Shown here: piece by piece, positions 23,745-37,772 of the stretch
How positions within the stretch are numbered: position 1 is the stretch's first letter
Layout: each line of letters opens with the position of its first letter
Assembly: GCA_018396695.1 (NCBI GenBank)
Contig: JAGTQU010000005.1
Span: 421 to 64,420, forward strand
Reading direction: 5' to 3'
Length of the DNA: 64,000 nucleotides
Origin: Candidatus Bathyarchaeota archaeon
GTDB lineage: Archaea; Thermoproteota; Bathyarchaeia; TCS64
Position numbers and translations under genes: made by a program
Notes under the pieces: model-generated
Databases searched by the model: none
Told to the model about the DNA's origin: nothing
Seen by the model: the letters and a program-made list of their open reading frames with translations, nothing else

Positions 23745-24716
23745 ATGTGCAGCAGTTTATGGACCGAGAAATATCGCCCTCAAACATTGGATGAGATAGT
23801 GAACCAGTCTGAAATAGTGTCTAGAATGAAGAAGTTTGTTAAAGAGCGAAATATACCTCATCTGCTATTCGTTGGCCCTGCAGGCGTGGGGAAAACAACG
23901 ACTATCTTAGCATTATCAAGAGATTTGTTTGGGCCATCGTATAGGAATTTTGTTATGGAGCTTAATGCTAGCGATGAGAGAGGGATCAACGTGATTAGAG
24001 AGAAAGTAAAATCTTTTGCTCAAACTGCTGCTATATCTCCTGAAGTTCCCTTCAAAATTTTAATCATGGATGAGGCTGATAGCTTAACCTCAGCGGCTCA
24101 ACATGCCCTGCGACGAACTATGGAGATCTACACAAAGACATGCCGTTTCTGTCTCATCGGGAACTACTCGGAGAATATTATAGAACCTATTCAGAGCAGA
24201 TGCTCGGTATTCCGCTTCAGCCCTTTAAGCGAACAGGATCTTAAAGGACGTATACGATCTATCTCCATTAAAGAGAATCTTCAACTTTTAGATGAGGGGT
24301 TAGACGCTATATATGAAGCTTCTGCGGGAGATGTGCGAAAGGCAATAAATCTCTTGCAAGCTGCCGCAGCCGTTCAGGGAGGAGTAATAGATGATGTATC
24401 AATCTATAGTGTACTCGGTCAGTTAAACCCTACAAGGATTAGGGAGATGGTAAAACTATGTTTGAAAGGTGACTTCCTTGAAGCCCGGGAAGTGTTACGT
24501 AGCTTACTTATTGAGGAAGGGATAGCTGCTGAAGATATCCTCAAACTCTTATATTTTGAAATTCTTAAAAGCGACATCGCTGAAGAGTGGAAGGTTAAAC
24601 TTTCGGATACTATAGGAGAAGTTGACTATAGGCTTACTCAAGGCTCTAGACCAGAGATCCAGCTCAGCGCTCTTCTCGCAAAACTAACGCTCGCCGGGGA
24701 AGAGATGCATCGATGA
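23745..24716 (+). CDS. rfcS: replication factor C small subunit
   Basis: EKYRPQTLDEIV, Walker A GPAGVGKTT, SRC motif region. Confidence 0.9.
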   Translation: MCSSLWTEKYRPQTLDEIVNQSEIVSRMKKFVKERNIPHLLFVGPAGVGKTTTILALSRDLFGPSYRNFVMELNASDERGINVIREKVKSFAQTAAISPEVPFKILIMDEADSLTSAAQHALRRTMEIYTKTCRFCLIGNYSENIIEPIQSRCSVFRFSPLSEQDLKGRIRSISIKENLQLLDEGLDAIYEASAGDVRKAINLLQAAAAVQGGVIDDVSIYSVLGQLNPTRIREMVKLCLKGDFLEAREVLRSLLIEEGIAAEDILKLLYFEILKSDIAEEWKVKLSDTIGEVDYRLTQGSRPEIQLSALLAKLTLAGEEMHR

Positions 24717-26137
24717 GAAACGAACCAGTATCTTGGACGATAAGGTTCAGACCTAAAAATAAGAAAGAAATAGTTGACAATAAAGAATCGGTTGAAAGGT
24801 TCCTCTCCTGGATGAAATCTTGGGTCAATGGTATTCCTGAAAAACATTCAGTCTTCTTGTATGGTCCTCCAGGCGTCGGAAAAACATCGACAGTTTTAGC
24901 ATTGGCGCGTGACCTAGGATTCGACGTTATCGAAGTGAATGCTAGTGATTACCGTACTAGCAAGAGATTAGAAGAGATAGTAGGCAGATCTATTTCTTTG
25001 AGTCTCACAGTTACGGGTAAGAGGAGAGTCATACTCTTCGATGAGATGGAGGGTATAAGTGGACGTGAGGATGAAGGTGGAATCTCTGAAATTATGAAGA
25101 TTATCAAAGAGAGCAGAATCCCTGTCGTCCTCATTTCAAATAGTATTCAAGAAAATTGGGAAAAATTCTTACCTCTTATATCTCTCTCAGAGTTGATAGA
25201 GTTTAATTCTATACCCTTCAAGGATGTTTTAAACTGGCTGAGAGATGTTTCAACTAAAGTCGGAGTCAAGGTTGAAGAAGAAGCTTTAGAACTGATCGCT
25301 GAAAGGTCTGCAGGGGACTTAAGATCGGCTTTAAACGACCTAGAAACCGTCGCCGGAGGGAGGACTCAAGTAACTCTAGAAGATGTTATAATTCTTGGTG
25401 ATAGAGATAGACAAACCTACACGCATGAAGCCCTTATGAAAATATTTTCTTCTAAGAGTGTTAAGGAAGCCAGACAAGTGATCTCTTCCTCATATATTAA
25501 CTATGATGAACTGTTCGAATGGATATATGAGAATATTCCCTACGTCCTGAATGATCCAAGGGATCTCTCAGAAGCTTTAAACCATCTCGCCTTAGCTGAC
25601 ATTTTTGAAGGTAGAGCTAATAGAACTCAAAATTATACTTTAATAAAATATATGTTCACTTTAATGACCGGGGGAGTTGCCCTTTCAAGGAAGCATTCAG
25701 ATGGAACAGGTCTATATAGACGCTTAGAGAGTAGGCTCTTGAACCTAGGTTTGCCACCAAATTCTTTTAAGATAAGCGATTCGCCTAGAGGGTTATCTGT
25801 CAAGCCTTCAAGATATCTTGGAAATGACTGGAGGAGGATTAACGAAACTATTCGTAAACTTGGTGGATATTGGAGAAAAACCGAAAAGATTTGGTTCCTA
25901 CCTTACTTCAGGAACCCTCAATACCTTCCAAATTTGAAGAGAACATGGTATATTAGACAAGCAAGAGATACTCTGATAGCAAAGATCTCGAAATATTGTC
26001 ATGTTTCAACAAGAGTAGCGTTAGTCGATCTCCTACCTTACCTCAAAATAGTCTTTGAAAAAGATGAGATGATGGCTAGAGAGTTTTCGAGACTGTTTGA
26101 GCTAAATGACAAAGAAGAAAACTACTTAAAATCTTAA
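24713..26137 (+). CDS. rfcL: replication factor C large subunit
   Basis: Walker A GPPGVGKTS, DEMEGI Walker B-like, overlaps rfcS by 4 nt. Confidence 0.85.
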   Translation: MRNEPVSWTIRFRPKNKKEIVDNKESVERFLSWMKSWVNGIPEKHSVFLYGPPGVGKTSTVLALARDLGFDVIEVNASDYRTSKRLEEIVGRSISLSLTVTGKRRVILFDEMEGISGREDEGGISEIMKIIKESRIPVVLISNSIQENWEKFLPLISLSELIEFNSIPFKDVLNWLRDVSTKVGVKVEEEALELIAERSAGDLRSALNDLETVAGGRTQVTLEDVIILGDRDRQTYTHEALMKIFSSKSVKEARQVISSSYINYDELFEWIYENIPYVLNDPRDLSEALNHLALADIFEGRANRTQNYTLIKYMFTLMTGGVALSRKHSDGTGLYRRLESRLLNLGLPPNSFKISDSPRGLSVKPSRYLGNDWRRINETIRKLGGYWRKTEKIWFLPYFRNPQYLPNLKRTWYIRQARDTLIAKISKYCHVSTRVALVDLLPYLKIVFEKDEMMAREFSRLFELNDKEENYLKS

Positions 26138-35164: not shown

Positions 35165-37492
35165 TTGAAAGTCAGTTTTTGGTTGCTAGATATAGGATAC
35201 GAAGTCGTAGAGGATAGTCCCGAGATAAGACTTTGGGGGTTTGACGGTGATGGGAATCGCATCTTAGTCATCGACCGTAGTCTTACTCCATATTTCTACT
35301 TCGCGCCTAAAGAAGGTAGCGTAGAATCCCTCTACGATCAAATCACTAAGTTAAAAGGAGAACTACCTTACATTATCAGGCATCATATAGTTGAGAAAAA
35401 AATTTTTGGAAAGCCTATAAAAGCCATAAAAGTTGACTGTAAAAACCCTGATAACCTATCTAAATATGCAAACCATCTTAAAAAAACTCTAAACGCTGGA
35501 TCTAGTTTTGAAGATGATGTCAGATTCTCTATGCGTTATCTCGTAGATAAAGAGGTAAACCCCTGCTCATGGATGGAGTTCGAGGTTGAAGAAATCAAGA
35601 ATGAGAATTTTAGAATAGATCAGATCTATCTAGCCAAATCTAATCCTAAGAAATTAGATGGACTTGCCCCTCCAAAATTTAGGGTATTGAGTTTTGATAT
35701 AATAGTCTATGGAGTGAAGGGCGCTGCAAAGGCAGCTCAAGATCCCATCATAATCATATCGGCGATGGATAATAAAGGTGTAAAGACTCAATTCATCTCT
35801 GAAAATAAAGATGATGAGACGATCATTGAAAAATTTAGAAATTTCGTTAACGAAGTCGATCCAGACATAGTAGTAAGCTATGAGGCAAACCAAGTGCATC
35901 TTCCTTATCTAATTTCGAGAGCTGAAAGCCATGGCATTGATTTTTCAATAAATAGGGATGGTGGTGTACCTCATAGAAGCGTATATGGCCACGTCTCTGT
36001 AACAGGTAGAGCCAATTTAGACCTCTATGATTTCTCTGATGAGTTCCCTCAAGTAAAAGTCAAGAGTCTTGAGAACATTGCACACTTCTTAGGATTATTA
36101 AAAACAGGTGAATCAGTTGTTATTGATGATTTTGATATCCCAAGTTTTTGGGATGCTGAAGAAAATCGCCAACGTCTTTTAAGATTCTCAGAGACTCGAG
36201 CTCAACTGGTACTCCAAATTTCTCAGGCTATTCTAGATAATGCAATCCAACTCTCAACGCTAGTTGGTTTACCCCTCGACCATATAGGGACGGCTGCAAC
36301 AGGTTTTAAAGTGGAATGGTATCTGATGCGACATGCCCACAGGATCGGAGAATTATTCCCTAACCGGTTAGAGCATCCTTACTATACCTATGAAGGGGGT
36401 CTTGTGCTTCCTCCTAAGCCAGGAATCCATAACAACGTTATGGTTCTTGACTTCAAATCAATGTATCCTAATATCATGATATCTAAAAACATCTCCCCAG
36501 ACACCTTGATTCAACCTGGCGAGCCTGAACCTCCAGAAGGCGTTTGGGAGGCGCCGAAGGTAGGATATCGTTTTAGAAGAGCCCCTTCAGGATTCTACAA
36601 AGAAGTTCTCACTGATTTAATTAAGCGTAGAAGCGAAATAAGCATAAAAATGAGAGAGCTTGATGAGGGTAGCTTTGAGTATCGAATACTCGACGCTCAA
36701 CAGCGGGCGATAAAGTTGTTAACAAACGCTACTTATGGCTATGCTGGATGGTTGGGTGCTCGCTGGTACTCAAAAGCGGTAGCCGAAACTACATCAGCTT
36801 GGGGGAGAGAAACGATACAGAATACTATCAAGCTTGCTAAAGTGATAGGTCTTGAAGTCATCTATAGTGATACTGATAGCATCTTTGTAGTTTACGATCA
36901 AGCTAAAGTAGAAGAATTATTGGAAAGAGTGAAAAAGGCGTTAGGCCTCGAAATCAAACCTGAGACAATTTATCGCAGCATTCTTTTCACCGAGGCTAAG
37001 AAGAGATACTGCGGGTTACTGCCCGATGGTCGATTAGATATCGTCGGATTGGAGGTGATTCGAGGAGATTGGGCTGAGGTCTCTAAGAAAGTGCAAGAAG
37101 ACGTTCTAGGCATCGTTTTGAGGGAGAGAGACATCAAAAAGGCAATTGAGGTCGTTAAGAAGTATATATCAGAGCTACGGGATAGGAAGACGCCCTTCAA
37201 GGATTTAATTATATGGAAAACCCTGACTAAACCAATAGAAAAATATAAGGTGAAGACTGCTCATGTAGAGGCGGCTTTGATGCTAAAAAAGGCGGGGCGA
37301 TCTCTATCCTTAGGGGACAAGATTGGCTATATAATAACGCTAAATGGAAGCAAACTGTATGAAAAGGCGAAGCCATACAATTTTGCGAGCTGGGATGAGA
37401 TAGACTTGGATTATTACGTTGAAAACCAAATCAAACCTGCAGCTTTAAGGATACTTGAACAATTCAACATAACCAGCGAAGAGTTGAATTGA
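35165..37492 (+). CDS. polB: family B DNA polymerase (polymerase motifs intact, exonuclease motifs degenerate)
   Basis: Motif A DFKSMYPNIM, motif B KLLTNATYGYAGW, motif C YSDTDS. Exo I reads FDII (not FDIE), exo II NQVHLPYL (no FD), exo III FSETRA (not Y...D). Confidence 0.85.
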   Translation: MKVSFWLLDIGYEVVEDSPEIRLWGFDGDGNRILVIDRSLTPYFYFAPKEGSVESLYDQITKLKGELPYIIRHHIVEKKIFGKPIKAIKVDCKNPDNLSKYANHLKKTLNAGSSFEDDVRFSMRYLVDKEVNPCSWMEFEVEEIKNENFRIDQIYLAKSNPKKLDGLAPPKFRVLSFDIIVYGVKGAAKAAQDPIIIISAMDNKGVKTQFISENKDDETIIEKFRNFVNEVDPDIVVSYEANQVHLPYLISRAESHGIDFSINRDGGVPHRSVYGHVSVTGRANLDLYDFSDEFPQVKVKSLENIAHFLGLLKTGESVVIDDFDIPSFWDAEENRQRLLRFSETRAQLVLQISQAILDNAIQLSTLVGLPLDHIGTAATGFKVEWYLMRHAHRIGELFPNRLEHPYYTYEGGLVLPPKPGIHNNVMVLDFKSMYPNIMISKNISPDTLIQPGEPEPPEGVWEAPKVGYRFRRAPSGFYKEVLTDLIKRRSEISIKMRELDEGSFEYRILDAQQRAIKLLTNATYGYAGWLGARWYSKAVAETTSAWGRETIQNTIKLAKVIGLEVIYSDTDSIFVVYDQAKVEELLERVKKALGLEIKPETIYRSILFTEAKKRYCGLLPDGRLDIVGLEVIRGDWAEVSKKVQEDVLGIVLRERDIKKAIEVVKKYISELRDRKTPFKDLIIWKTLTKPIEKYKVKTAHVEAALMLKKAGRSLSLGDKIGYIITLNGSKLYEKAKPYNFASWDEIDLDYYVENQIKPAALRILEQFNITSEELN

Positions 37493-37514: not shown

Positions 37515-37772
37515 TTATGGGACAGCCGTCTCTGCTTCTCCAATCTTCTCAGAGTATTCTGCCTCTAAGTTAGCTACGGAGTATATCATTATGTAAAAGT
37601 TTGAGAGGAGGATGATCGACAAAAATGGCTCTTCTCTCGCTAGACTATAGAATGCATAGATCATGTTAAGTATCGCTCCAATGTACATTGCTAAGCCGTA
37701 CTTAGTCCAGCCCATACCTCTACACCCTAACTTAAGATCAAATCGTTTAGAAAGATATAAAACTATTTTCAA
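37515..37772 (-). CDS. small membrane protein (hypothetical)
   Basis: 85 aa, two TM helices. Confidence 0.3.
   Translation of the reverse strand: MKIVLYLSKRFDLKLGCRGMGWTKYGLAMYIGAILNMIYAFYSLAREEPFLSIILLSNFYIMIYSVANLEAEYSEKIGEAETAVP

What the first reader, a model, noticed from the sequence alone, without database searches (positions are those of the whole stretch)
35165..37492. Family-B DNA polymerase with intact polymerase motifs but all three exonuclease motifs degenerate
Pol motifs A (DFKSMYPNIM), B (KLLTNATYGYAGW) and C (YSDTDS) keep their catalytic Asp residues. Exo I reads FDII instead of FDIE, exo II NQVHLPYL lacks the FD, and exo III FSETRA lacks both Tyr and Asp. This predicts a polymerase-proficient, proofreading-deficient PolB. 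It differs from the known fully inactivated archaeal PolB family and would matter for replication fidelity if this is the main replicase.
Basis: partly seen in the sequence, partly recalled or inferred. Interest (0 to 1): 0.55.

Follow-up and report, generated by a model that had tools for sequence, protein, structure and literature searches.

The report
Proofreading-dead PolB3 polymerase of Bathyarchaeia
This gene encodes a normal-looking archaeal family-B (PolB3) DNA polymerase whose copying site is intact but whose built-in proofreading site has lost its catalytic residues, and the same loss is shared by every Bathyarchaeia relative examined, so it looks like a lineage-wide, selected change rather than a defect of this one gene.

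Summary
ORF 35165-37492 (+) encodes a 775-aa family-B DNA polymerase. HMMER alignments to solved PolBs (5mdn, KOD) are gapless at the exo motifs. They place I, H, F and R at KOD E143, D215, Y311 and D315; only D141 survives. Pol motifs A, B and C are canonical.

It is a PolB3 orthologue from a hot-spring Bathyarchaeia genome. The identical protein is in MAG contig JAGTQW010000056.1. The exo-dead state is not private to this gene. None of the 120 nearest database proteins and none of 80 species-level Bathyarchaeia genomes has an intact exo site, while all 80 genome copies keep the three polymerase aspartates.

The gene is under purifying selection (dN/dS 0.12-0.15). The exo domain still folds (AlphaFold pLDDT 92, TM 0.89 to 5mdn). 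It is not PolB2: no iRadA/PPB2 operon, an intact DTD, and the Exo III helix is present.

Most likely it is a non-proofreading accessory polymerase working beside PolD, in lagging-strand, gap-filling or strand-displacement synthesis. That role is inferred. I could not test PolD co-occurrence in the same genome.

I found no description of this exo-dead PolB3 lineage in the searchable literature. I rate it a new variant of a known kind, of moderate interest.

The parts
35165..37492 (+). Family-B DNA polymerase gene (PolB3 orthologue), 775 aa. TTG start; an alternative TTG start lies at 35183.
35165..35665 (+). N-terminal domain (residues 1-167). Residues at the archaeal uracil/hypoxanthine read-ahead pocket positions (KOD Y7, P36, Y37, P90, V93, I114, P115, F116) read Y, P, Y, P, L, V, R, F.
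   Evidence: The same pattern (YPYPVIRF) occurs in exo-intact relatives including the Sulfolobaceae protein P0126. These positions are conserved across the Bathyarchaeia clade.
35666..36259 (+). 3'-5' exonuclease-fold domain (residues 168-365). It is structurally retained but catalytically degenerate.
   Evidence: PF03104 hit. AF2 model pLDDT 92, TM 0.89 to 5mdn. dN/dS 0.15-0.37. Column entropy lies between that of the N-terminal domain and the pol domain.
35693..35710 (+). Exo I motif FDIIVY. D141 equivalent kept; E143 equivalent is Ile.
35879..35911 (+). Exo II motif YEANQVHLPYL. N210 becomes E, F214 becomes V, D215 becomes H.
36182..36205 (+). Exo III motif RFSETRAQ. Y311 becomes F, D315 becomes R. 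The helix itself is present.
36449..36478 (+). Pol motif A DFKSMYPNIM. Catalytic Asp and steric-gate Tyr are kept.
   Evidence: (D429, Y434 and P435 invariant)
36713..36751 (+). Pol motif B KLLTNATYGYAGW.
36863..36880 (+). Pol motif C YSDTDS. Both catalytic Asp are kept.
   Evidence: (Y567, D569, T570, D571 and S572 invariant)
37427..37489 (+). C-terminus ...ILEQFNITSEELN. The protein ends without the PIP-like tail (..TLxxFF) that most Bathyarchaeia homologues carry.

Best explanation
The gene encodes the Bathyarchaeia orthologue of archaeal PolB3. Its polymerase active site is canonical: motif A Asp, steric-gate Tyr, motif B, and motif C DTD. Its DEDDy proofreading site has lost E143, D215, Y311 and D315 (KOD numbering). 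It should therefore synthesise DNA but not excise its own errors. The exonuclease domain is kept as a folded, selected structural module.

I infer that it serves as an accessory, non-proofreading polymerase beside the proofreading family-D polymerase. Likely tasks are lagging-strand or Okazaki-fragment strand-displacement synthesis, gap filling and repair synthesis. Loss of the exonuclease would remove idling and favour strand displacement.

Shown here: identity, orthology, loss of catalytic residues, retention of the fold, purifying selection, and lineage-wide distribution.

Inferred: absence of exonuclease activity, and the cellular role.

Not tested: co-occurrence with PolD in the same genome.
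For: - Family membership and motif assignments come from alignment to solved structures.
- The AF2 model has pLDDT 92 and pTM 0.87, and superposes on PolB3 5mdn at TM 0.89 over 774 columns.
- None of the 120 nearest proteins and none of 80 GTDB-species Bathyarchaeia loci has an intact D-E-D-Y-D. All 80 loci keep the pol Asp triad.
- dN/dS is 0.12-0.15 for the gene, 0.15-0.37 for the exo domain and 0.07-0.13 for the pol domain.
- The exo domain is more conserved than the N-terminal domain. The replacement residues are themselves conserved across the main clade (S-I-D-F-N).
- PolB3 orthology: 5mdn is PolB3 (PMC7544198). dnaG lies convergently downstream in 32 related loci and scores 466 bits against NF003108. 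This is the context reported for crenarchaeal polB3 (PMC4104785).
- NJ bootstrap is 99 for the Bathyarchaeia clade that contains the query.
- Uracil-pocket residues are conserved, as in exo-intact PolB3. This argues for a replicative-type rather than a lesion-bypass enzyme.
- Literature: D141A/E143A abolishes PolB exonuclease activity, and an exo-minus allele is tolerated in T. kodakarensis. There PolB is dispensable and performs lagging-strand and Okazaki-maturation synthesis, while PolD does the bulk synthesis (PMC13136892).
- Literature: PolD is absent only from Crenarchaeota (PMC6355029).
Against: - No biochemical data exist for any member of the clade.
- PolD, or any second polymerase, could not be looked for in the same genome.
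- None of the 11 ORFs of 399 aa or more in the 64-kb window is another polymerase, which says little about the rest of the genome.
- The query's subclade lacks the C-terminal PIP-like tail, so coupling to PCNA is uncertain for this particular protein.
- The conserved replacement residues (S-I-D-F-N) could mean the old exo site has a new role that this model does not specify.
- The statement that loss of exo activity favours strand displacement comes from my general knowledge of exo-minus family-B enzymes. It was not tested here.
Confidence: 0.6

Rival explanations
1. It is a translesion or mismatch-extender polymerase. Functionally it would resemble PolB2/Dpo2 or eukaryotic Pol zeta, whose exo sites are also dead. 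It might even belong to the basal 'PolB2 with intact DxD' group reported from TACK archaea.
For: - The exo active site is lost while the pol site is kept, as in Pol zeta and in DxD-type TACK PolB2 (PMC11791011).
- PolB2/Dpo2 is described as a TLS extender (title and abstract of PMC8764526, listed).
- The query's subclade lacks the C-terminal PIP-like tail.
Against: - No iRadA or PPB2 genes lie next to the gene, in the window or in the 83 loci analysed (the 80 genome loci, two close relatives and the window).
- The Exo III helix is present and the whole exo domain is well folded. B2 is described as lacking Exo III altogether.
- The protein shows strong full-length similarity to bona fide PolB3 (5mdn: 689 bits, E 4e-206, about 50% identity by eye in the phmmer alignment, 41% in the Foldseek alignment), and relatives show dnaG synteny.
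- Uracil-pocket residues are conserved. Such a pocket would stall, not bypass, deaminated templates.
Confidence: 0.2
2. It is the main replicative polymerase of this organism. It would run without intrinsic proofreading, with error removal supplied in trans by another nuclease or by mismatch repair.
For: - Exactly one copy was found per genome among the 80 loci.
- The gene is under strong purifying selection.
- It lies about 9 kb from the RFC small and large subunit genes in the window.
- In an unrelated exo-dead PolB locus, a RecJ-family nuclease gene directly follows the polymerase gene.
Against: - PolD is reported in all archaeal superphyla and is absent only from Crenarchaeota (PMC6355029).
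- Where tested, PolD is the essential replicase and PolB is dispensable (PMC13136892).
- This copy has no PIP tail.
- A replicase without proofreading would be unprecedented for a cellular chromosome of about 2 Mb.
Confidence: 0.07
3. The exonuclease is still active through a non-canonical set of residues. In the query these would be the retained first Asp, E240, E343 and His245. In the main clade they would be the retained D215.
For: - One carboxylate is always retained: D141 in the query's subclade, D215 in the main clade.
- The replacement residues are conserved.
- PolB2 was wrongly predicted to be inactive as a polymerase from motif loss (PMC7544198).
Against: - Two-metal DEDDy catalysis needs the four carboxylates.
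- A double D141A/E143A substitution alone is enough to compromise the activity in Thermococcus PolB (PMC13136892).
- The query and the main clade keep different single carboxylates, so no common alternative site exists.
- Arg and His at the D315 and D215 positions would occupy the metal sites.
Confidence: 0.05
4. It is a decaying or non-functional gene copy.
For: Catalytic residues of one domain have been lost.
Against: - The 775-codon frame is uninterrupted.
- dN/dS is 0.12-0.15.
- The pol catalytic residues are invariant in 80 of 80 genomes.
- Synteny is conserved in close relatives.
- The structure prediction is confident.
Confidence: 0.02

Closest known systems
Archaeal PolB3, e.g. Pyrobaculum calidifontis PolB (PDB 5mdn) and Sulfolobaceae Dpo3-type enzymes
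   Same: - Same five-domain architecture and length.
- 689 bits (E 4e-206) to 5mdn over the full length; about 50% identity by eye in the phmmer alignment and 41% in the Foldseek alignment; TM 0.89.
- Same pol motifs and the same uracil-pocket residue pattern.
- Relatives share the convergent dnaG neighbour.
   Different: - The exo catalytic residues E143, D215, Y311 and D315 are replaced.
- The C-terminal PIP-like tail is missing in this subclade.
- The protein scores below the NCBIfam equivalog cut-off (254.6 against 570 bits).
Archaeal PolB2 (Dpo2), including the DxD-retaining TACK members (PMC11791011)
   Same: The exonuclease active site is absent while polymerase activity is kept or predicted. 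Both occur in TACK lineages.
   Different: - No PolB2-iRadA-PPB2 operon.
- The Exo III helix and the whole exo domain are structurally complete.
- The protein is far closer to PolB3.
- Motif C is the canonical YxDTDS.
Eukaryotic Pol alpha and Pol zeta catalytic subunits
   Same: Family-B polymerases that keep the exonuclease fold but have lost its catalytic residues. They work alongside proofreading replicases (PMC7544198; PMC12680538).
   Different: - No C-terminal Zn-finger domain for a B-subunit.
- Independent origin within PolB3.
- No known partner subunits.
Engineered exo-minus archaeal PolBs (D141A/E143A variants of Vent, 9°N, KOD)
   Same: The same catalytic positions are neutralised, giving polymerase-proficient, exonuclease-deficient enzymes. 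An exo-minus allele is tolerated in vivo in T. kodakarensis.
   Different: Here the loss is natural, affects three motifs, is ancient and is fixed across a whole class.

Membership tests
Family-B DNA polymerase | DNA_pol_B (palm, fingers, thumb) plus DNA_pol_B_exo1 domains above the Pfam gathering scores | tested here: met
   PF00136 217.7 bits (cut-off 23). PF03104 82 bits (cut-off 23)..
Family-B DNA polymerase | Pol motifs A (DxxSLYPS-like), B (KxxxNSxYG-like) and C (YxDTDS) with catalytic Asp residues | tested here: met
   DFKSMYPNIM, KLLTNATYG, YSDTDS. D429, D569 and D571 are invariant in the 100-sequence alignment and in 80 of 80 genomes.
DEDDy 3'-5' proofreading exonuclease (active) | Four catalytic carboxylates (D141, E143, D215, D315) plus Tyr311 | tested here: not met
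   The query reads D, I, H, F, R at these positions in gapless alignments to 5mdn and KOD.
Archaeal PolB3 | Closest sequence and structure relatives are bona fide PolB3 | tested here: met
   5mdn at E 4e-206 and TM 0.89. PolB1 (1s5j) matches only at 8e-40 and only in the pol domain. 5mdn is named PolB3 in PMC7544198.
Archaeal PolB3 | Conserved convergent dnaG neighbour (the crenarchaeal PolB3 context) | tested here: inconclusive
   Present in 32 of the 83 loci analysed (DnaG NF003108, 466 bits) but absent from this window and from its close relatives.
Archaeal PolB3 | Curated NCBIfam equivalog score | tested here: not met
   Best model NF004421 scores 254.6 bits against a cut-off of 570.
Archaeal PolB3 | C-terminal PCNA-interacting (PIP-like) tail | tested here: not met
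   The query ends at ...ITSEELN. Most Bathyarchaeia homologues end in ..TLxxFF-type tails.
Archaeal PolB3 | N-terminal deaminated-base (uracil) pocket residues | tested here: inconclusive
   Residues read Y, P, Y, P, L, V, R, F at KOD positions 7, 36, 37, 90, 93, 114, 115 and 116. Exo-intact relatives including the Sulfolobaceae protein show the same pattern. Function was not tested.
Archaeal PolB2 (Dpo2) | Operon with iRadA and PPB2 (arCOG07300) | tested here: not met
   The neighbours in the window are a Trm112-like protein, KARI, dCMP deaminase and an M19 dipeptidase. No RadA-like neighbour family appears in the 83 loci analysed.
Archaeal PolB2 (Dpo2) | Exo III missing and motif C with a single Asp, in most members | tested here: not met
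   The Exo III helix is aligned and modelled (helix 332-367). Motif C is YSDTDS. The criterion is taken from PMC7544198.
Eukaryotic Pol alpha / Pol zeta-like | C-terminal Zn-finger domain binding a B-subunit | tested here: not met
   The protein ends right after the thumb, at KOD position ~755. There is no Cys-rich tail.
PolD-dependent replisome (accessory role of PolB) | DP1 and DP2 genes present in the same genome | not testable with these tools
A DP2 query, verified against PDB 6hms, returned only short fragments. There are no DP2 hits in the loci held. Support comes from the literature only (PMC6355029).

The most novel reading that the evidence does not exclude
Bathyarchaeia are among the most abundant archaea. 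Together with at least Culexarchaeia and some Nitrososphaerota, they have converted their PolB3 into a dedicated non-proofreading polymerase. This would be an independent archaeal parallel to the evolution of Pol alpha and Pol zeta from proofreading ancestors. The former exonuclease pocket, with its conserved S-I-D-F-N residues, may have been repurposed. It might for example hold or sense the 3' end and hand it to PolD/DP1 or another nuclease for proofreading in trans.
Probability: 0.3. Interest if true: 0.72.

Novelty: new variant of a known kind. Interest (0 to 1): 0.55.

Why it matters
Archaeal PolB3 is the textbook proofreading family-B enzyme and the source of Pfu, KOD and Vent. Here a whole class of abundant archaea carries a naturally exonuclease-dead but otherwise canonical PolB3.

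This bears on three questions:
- How replication labour and fidelity are divided between PolB and PolD.
- Whether loss of proofreading in Pol alpha and Pol zeta has archaeal precedents.
- How mutation rates are controlled in Bathyarchaeia.

It also offers natural exo-minus scaffolds for enzyme engineering. Finally, genome annotations that name these proteins plain 'DNA polymerase II' or 'DNA-directed DNA polymerase' hide the difference.

Tried and rejected
1. **PolD co-occurrence.**
   - A DP2 sequence recalled from memory was verified as genuine against PDB 6hms_B (1212.8 bits).
   - tblastn of it against the window and all loci held found nothing.
   - A 97-aa catalytic-core query returned only 44 short fragments, none named as Bathyarchaeia.
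   - Supplements of three papers held no usable table.
2. **ORFs of 850 aa or more in the 80 loci.** By inspection of their N-terminal sequences none looks like DP2. None was scanned against a family library.
3. **Literature.** The searches aimed at Bathyarchaeia PolB exonuclease or proofreading found no description of an exo-dead PolB3. The others sought PolD distribution. Absence from this library is not proof of novelty.
4. **PolB2 membership.** Considered because of PMC11791011 and rejected on operon context, the Exo III helix and similarity.
5. **Pseudogene.** Rejected on dN/dS and conservation.
6. **Single versus multiple losses.** The NJ bootstrap does not resolve whether all exo-dead PolB3-like proteins form one clade (48%).
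7. **Uracil-pocket mapping.** My first two attempts used a wrong residue offset and were discarded. anchors on motif strings and is the valid one.
8. **Source contig.** Look-up of the 769-aa form of the protein failed. The 775-aa form succeeded.
9. **RNA genes.** Rfam and tRNA scans of the window found nothing.
Full report

The ORF at 35165-37492 (+) is uninterrupted and encodes 775 aa from a TTG start. Pfam recognises both the family-B polymerase domain (PF00136, 3.6e-64) and the family-B exonuclease domain (PF03104, 5.8e-23).

The best solved relative is the Pyrobaculum calidifontis PolB, 5mdn (E 4e-206, full length). The Thermococcales enzymes (KOD, Pfu, Tgo, 9°N) follow at about 1e-100.

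In those HMMER alignments the three exo motifs are aligned without gaps and with high posterior support:
- FDIIVY against FDIEVY / FDIETL.
- YEANQVHLPYL against YNSNGFDWPYL / YNGDNFDFAYL.
- RFSETRAQ against RYVLDDVR / RYSMEDAK.

In KOD numbering, D141 is kept. E143 becomes I, D215 becomes H, Y311 becomes F and D315 becomes R. N210 and F214 are also lost. Pol motifs A, B and C are canonical.

**2. What is it, and whose is it?**

The exact 775-aa protein is encoded on NCBI contig JAGTQW010000056.1 (GCA_018397005.1) with the same neighbours. That accession lies in the range deposited for hot-spring Ca. Bathyarchaeia MAGs from Tibet and Yunnan (PMC8407382).

The 120 nearest proteins in the 5.8-billion-protein collection are 52-93% identical to the query. 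Those that carry a source name are all Bathyarchaeia or Bathyarchaeota. The 80 best loci in the one-genome-per-species collection are almost all titled Bathyarchaeia or Bathyarchaeota MAGs. Three carry other or generic titles (L031, L045, L058). Each comes from a different genome, and identity is at most 56%.

An AlphaFold model built with a 100-sequence alignment is confident (pLDDT 92, pTM 0.87). It superposes on 5mdn at TM 0.89 over 774 columns, exonuclease domain included.

5mdn is explicitly called PolB3 by Kazlauskas et al..

In 32 of the 83 loci analysed, a gene scoring 466 bits against the archaeal DnaG equivalog lies convergently downstream of the polymerase. This is the context Makarova et al. 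describe for crenarchaeal polB3.

In the window itself that context is replaced by housekeeping genes: a Trm112-like protein, ketol-acid reductoisomerase, dCMP deaminase and an M19 dipeptidase. Close relatives at 93% and 87% identity conserve this arrangement.

**3. The loss is lineage-wide and selected.**

None of the 120 nearest proteins has an intact exo site. Most read FSIICY / NRxDxPYL / FSMENT.

In the 80 genome loci the five diagnostic positions read S-I-D-F-N or variants. No locus has D-E-D-Y-D, and all 80 keep the three polymerase aspartates.

The query belongs to a divergent subclade (with P0001-P0004) that reads D-[I/V/T]-[H/N]-F-R. It has 100% NJ bootstrap support and is nested in the Bathyarchaeia clade, which has 99%.

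So the query's subclade retains the first Exo I Asp, while the main clade retains the Exo II Asp. This is the pattern expected if catalysis was lost before the two diverged.

Nei-Gojobori dN/dS between the window and its two close relatives:
- 0.12-0.15 for the gene.
- 0.07-0.13 for the pol domain.
- 0.15-0.37 for the exo domain.

Across 196 clade members, column entropy of the exo domain (1.23 bits) lies between that of the N-terminal domain (1.53) and the pol domain (0.91). The replacement residues are themselves conserved. The exonuclease domain is thus a maintained structural module with a dead active site, not a decaying remnant.

**4. Beyond Bathyarchaeia.**

A search of 1.84 billion 50%-identity representatives gave 13,229 relatives. 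Among the best 150, exo-dead but pol-intact proteins fall in three places:
- The Bathyarchaeia clade. Its sister is Ca. Culexarchaeum nevadense (P0121; 77% bootstrap).
- A long-branched set. Its members are named by their sources as Nitrososphaeria/Nitrososphaerota, other Bathyarchaeia, an 'Aciduliprofundum' bin and 'bacterium HR11'.
- A small set nested among PolBs whose motifs look halobacterial or Methanomicrobia-like. I did not check their taxonomy.

The nearest exo-intact relatives include a Sulfolobaceae PolB (P0126) and several unnamed sequences. Whether all exo-dead PolB3-like proteins share one loss is unresolved (48% bootstrap). The tree is a distance tree and should be treated as rough.

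**5. Known families considered.**

PolB2 is the classical 'inactivated' archaeal PolB. A 2025 study reports that some TACK PolB2 keep the DxD motif, sit next to PolB3 in the tree, and have an exo domain without an active site. That is the serious rival. I reject membership for three reasons:
- PolB2 in that work is defined by the PolB2-iRadA-PPB2 operon. No RadA-like neighbour exists in the window or in the 83 loci analysed.
- B2 is described as lacking Exo III altogether. Here the helix is present.
- Similarity to bona fide PolB3 is very high.

Two members of the second exo-dead set also lack that operon.

The resemblance to Pol alpha and Pol zeta is functional only. They share a dead exo site in a retained fold, but this protein has no Zn-finger C-terminal domain.

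**6. How it most likely works.**

Substitution of D141 and E143 alone compromises the exonuclease of Thermococcus PolB. Here three carboxylates and the Tyr are gone, with Arg and His at two metal-ligand positions. Absence of proofreading is therefore a strong inference.

The pol site, the steric-gate Tyr and the residues of the uracil/hypoxanthine read-ahead pocket are conserved as in exo-intact PolB3. This fits a replicative-type enzyme better than a lesion-bypass enzyme.

PolD is reported in all archaeal superphyla and is absent only from Crenarchaeota. In T. kodakarensis PolD does the bulk synthesis. [quoted passage not shown]

I therefore favour an accessory, non-proofreading polymerase working beside PolD (confidence about 0.6 for the package). 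The idea that loss of the exonuclease favours strand displacement comes from my general knowledge of exo-minus family-B enzymes. It is not tested here.

The main weakness is that PolD could not be sought in the same genome. A second weakness is that this subclade lacks the C-terminal PIP-like tail present in most homologues.

**7. Novelty and score.**

The full-text searches aimed at this question found no description of an exo-dead PolB3 lineage. The two main PolB surveys do not mention it either. The proteins are in public databases under generic names.

I rate this a new variant of a known kind. It is of moderate interest as it stands (0.55). Interest would be higher if biochemistry confirms a dedicated non-proofreading role or a repurposed exo pocket.

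Noticed in passing
window 37427-37489 (C-terminus of the PolB): The query ends without the C-terminal PIP-like tail (..(K/Q)TLxxFF) that most Bathyarchaeia PolB3 homologues carry. A set of relatives also ends without it: P0001-P0008, P0016, P0023, P0025, P0045, P0049, P0065 and P0085. PCNA coupling may differ in this group.
   Followed up: partly
window 23745-24716 (+) and 24713-26137 (+): Overlapping genes for the replication factor C small subunit (NF001679, 443 bits) and large subunit (NF003229, 375 bits). They lie about 9 kb upstream of the PolB gene.
   Followed up: partly
L001-L080, downstream of the PolB (e.g. L041:2960-4177, L035:4421-4969): In 32 loci an archaeal DnaG primase gene lies convergently downstream of the PolB. 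In 38 loci a small Toprim-domain protein (PRK04017-like) lies there. Both are absent from the window, whose subclade has a rearranged neighbourhood.
   Followed up: partly
Bathyarchaeia PolB3 clade, alignment positions equivalent to KOD 141/143/215/311/315: The residues that replaced the catalytic ones are themselves conserved across the main clade: S (168 of 196), I/V, D (173 of 196), F (180 of 196), N (172 of 196). D to N and Y to F are isosteric changes. This suggests a maintained, possibly repurposed, pocket rather than free drift.
   Followed up: partly
L084:6001-9544: Another exo-dead, pol-intact PolB (P0129, unnamed metagenome contig of 524 kb) overlaps at its 3' end with a RecJ-family DHH nuclease gene on the same strand. 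A DNA ligase gene lies 2 kb further on. This could be a nuclease supplied in trans, but that is speculation.
   Followed up: no
proteins P0128/P0304, P0125/P0288, P0138/P0346, P0121/P0271: Exo-dead PolB3-like proteins are also attributed by their sources to 'bacterium HR11', Nitrososphaeria/Nitrososphaerota MAGs and Ca. Culexarchaeum nevadense. The bacterial attribution could be horizontal transfer or a binning error.
   Followed up: no
proteins P0166, P0168, P0183, P0189, P0261, P0267: A third small group of exo-dead PolBs (Exo I like MALEFA; motif C often YADTDG). It is nested among PolBs whose motifs look halobacterial or Methanomicrobia-like in the NJ tree. Taxonomy was not checked.
   Followed up: no
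window 35165 vs 35183: There are two in-frame TTG start candidates. NCBI annotates the 775-aa form. Callers of the close relatives chose the 769-aa form. The family consensus begins ..FWLLD, which favours the upstream start.
   Followed up: partly
window 37515-37772 (-) / L087:7012-7212 (-): A small ORF of unknown function (66 aa as called in L087 and L081, 60 aa in L082) lies immediately downstream and convergent to the PolB. It is conserved in position in the three close relatives and has no Pfam hit on record.
   Followed up: no
representatives P0123, P0125, P0143, P0147-P0153 and others (1150-1730 aa): Many PolB3 representatives are 1150-1730 aa long and match the query in two or more separate stretches, as expected for intein insertions. 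These include the exo-dead Nitrososphaeria-type P0125. The window's gene has no such insertion.
   Followed up: no
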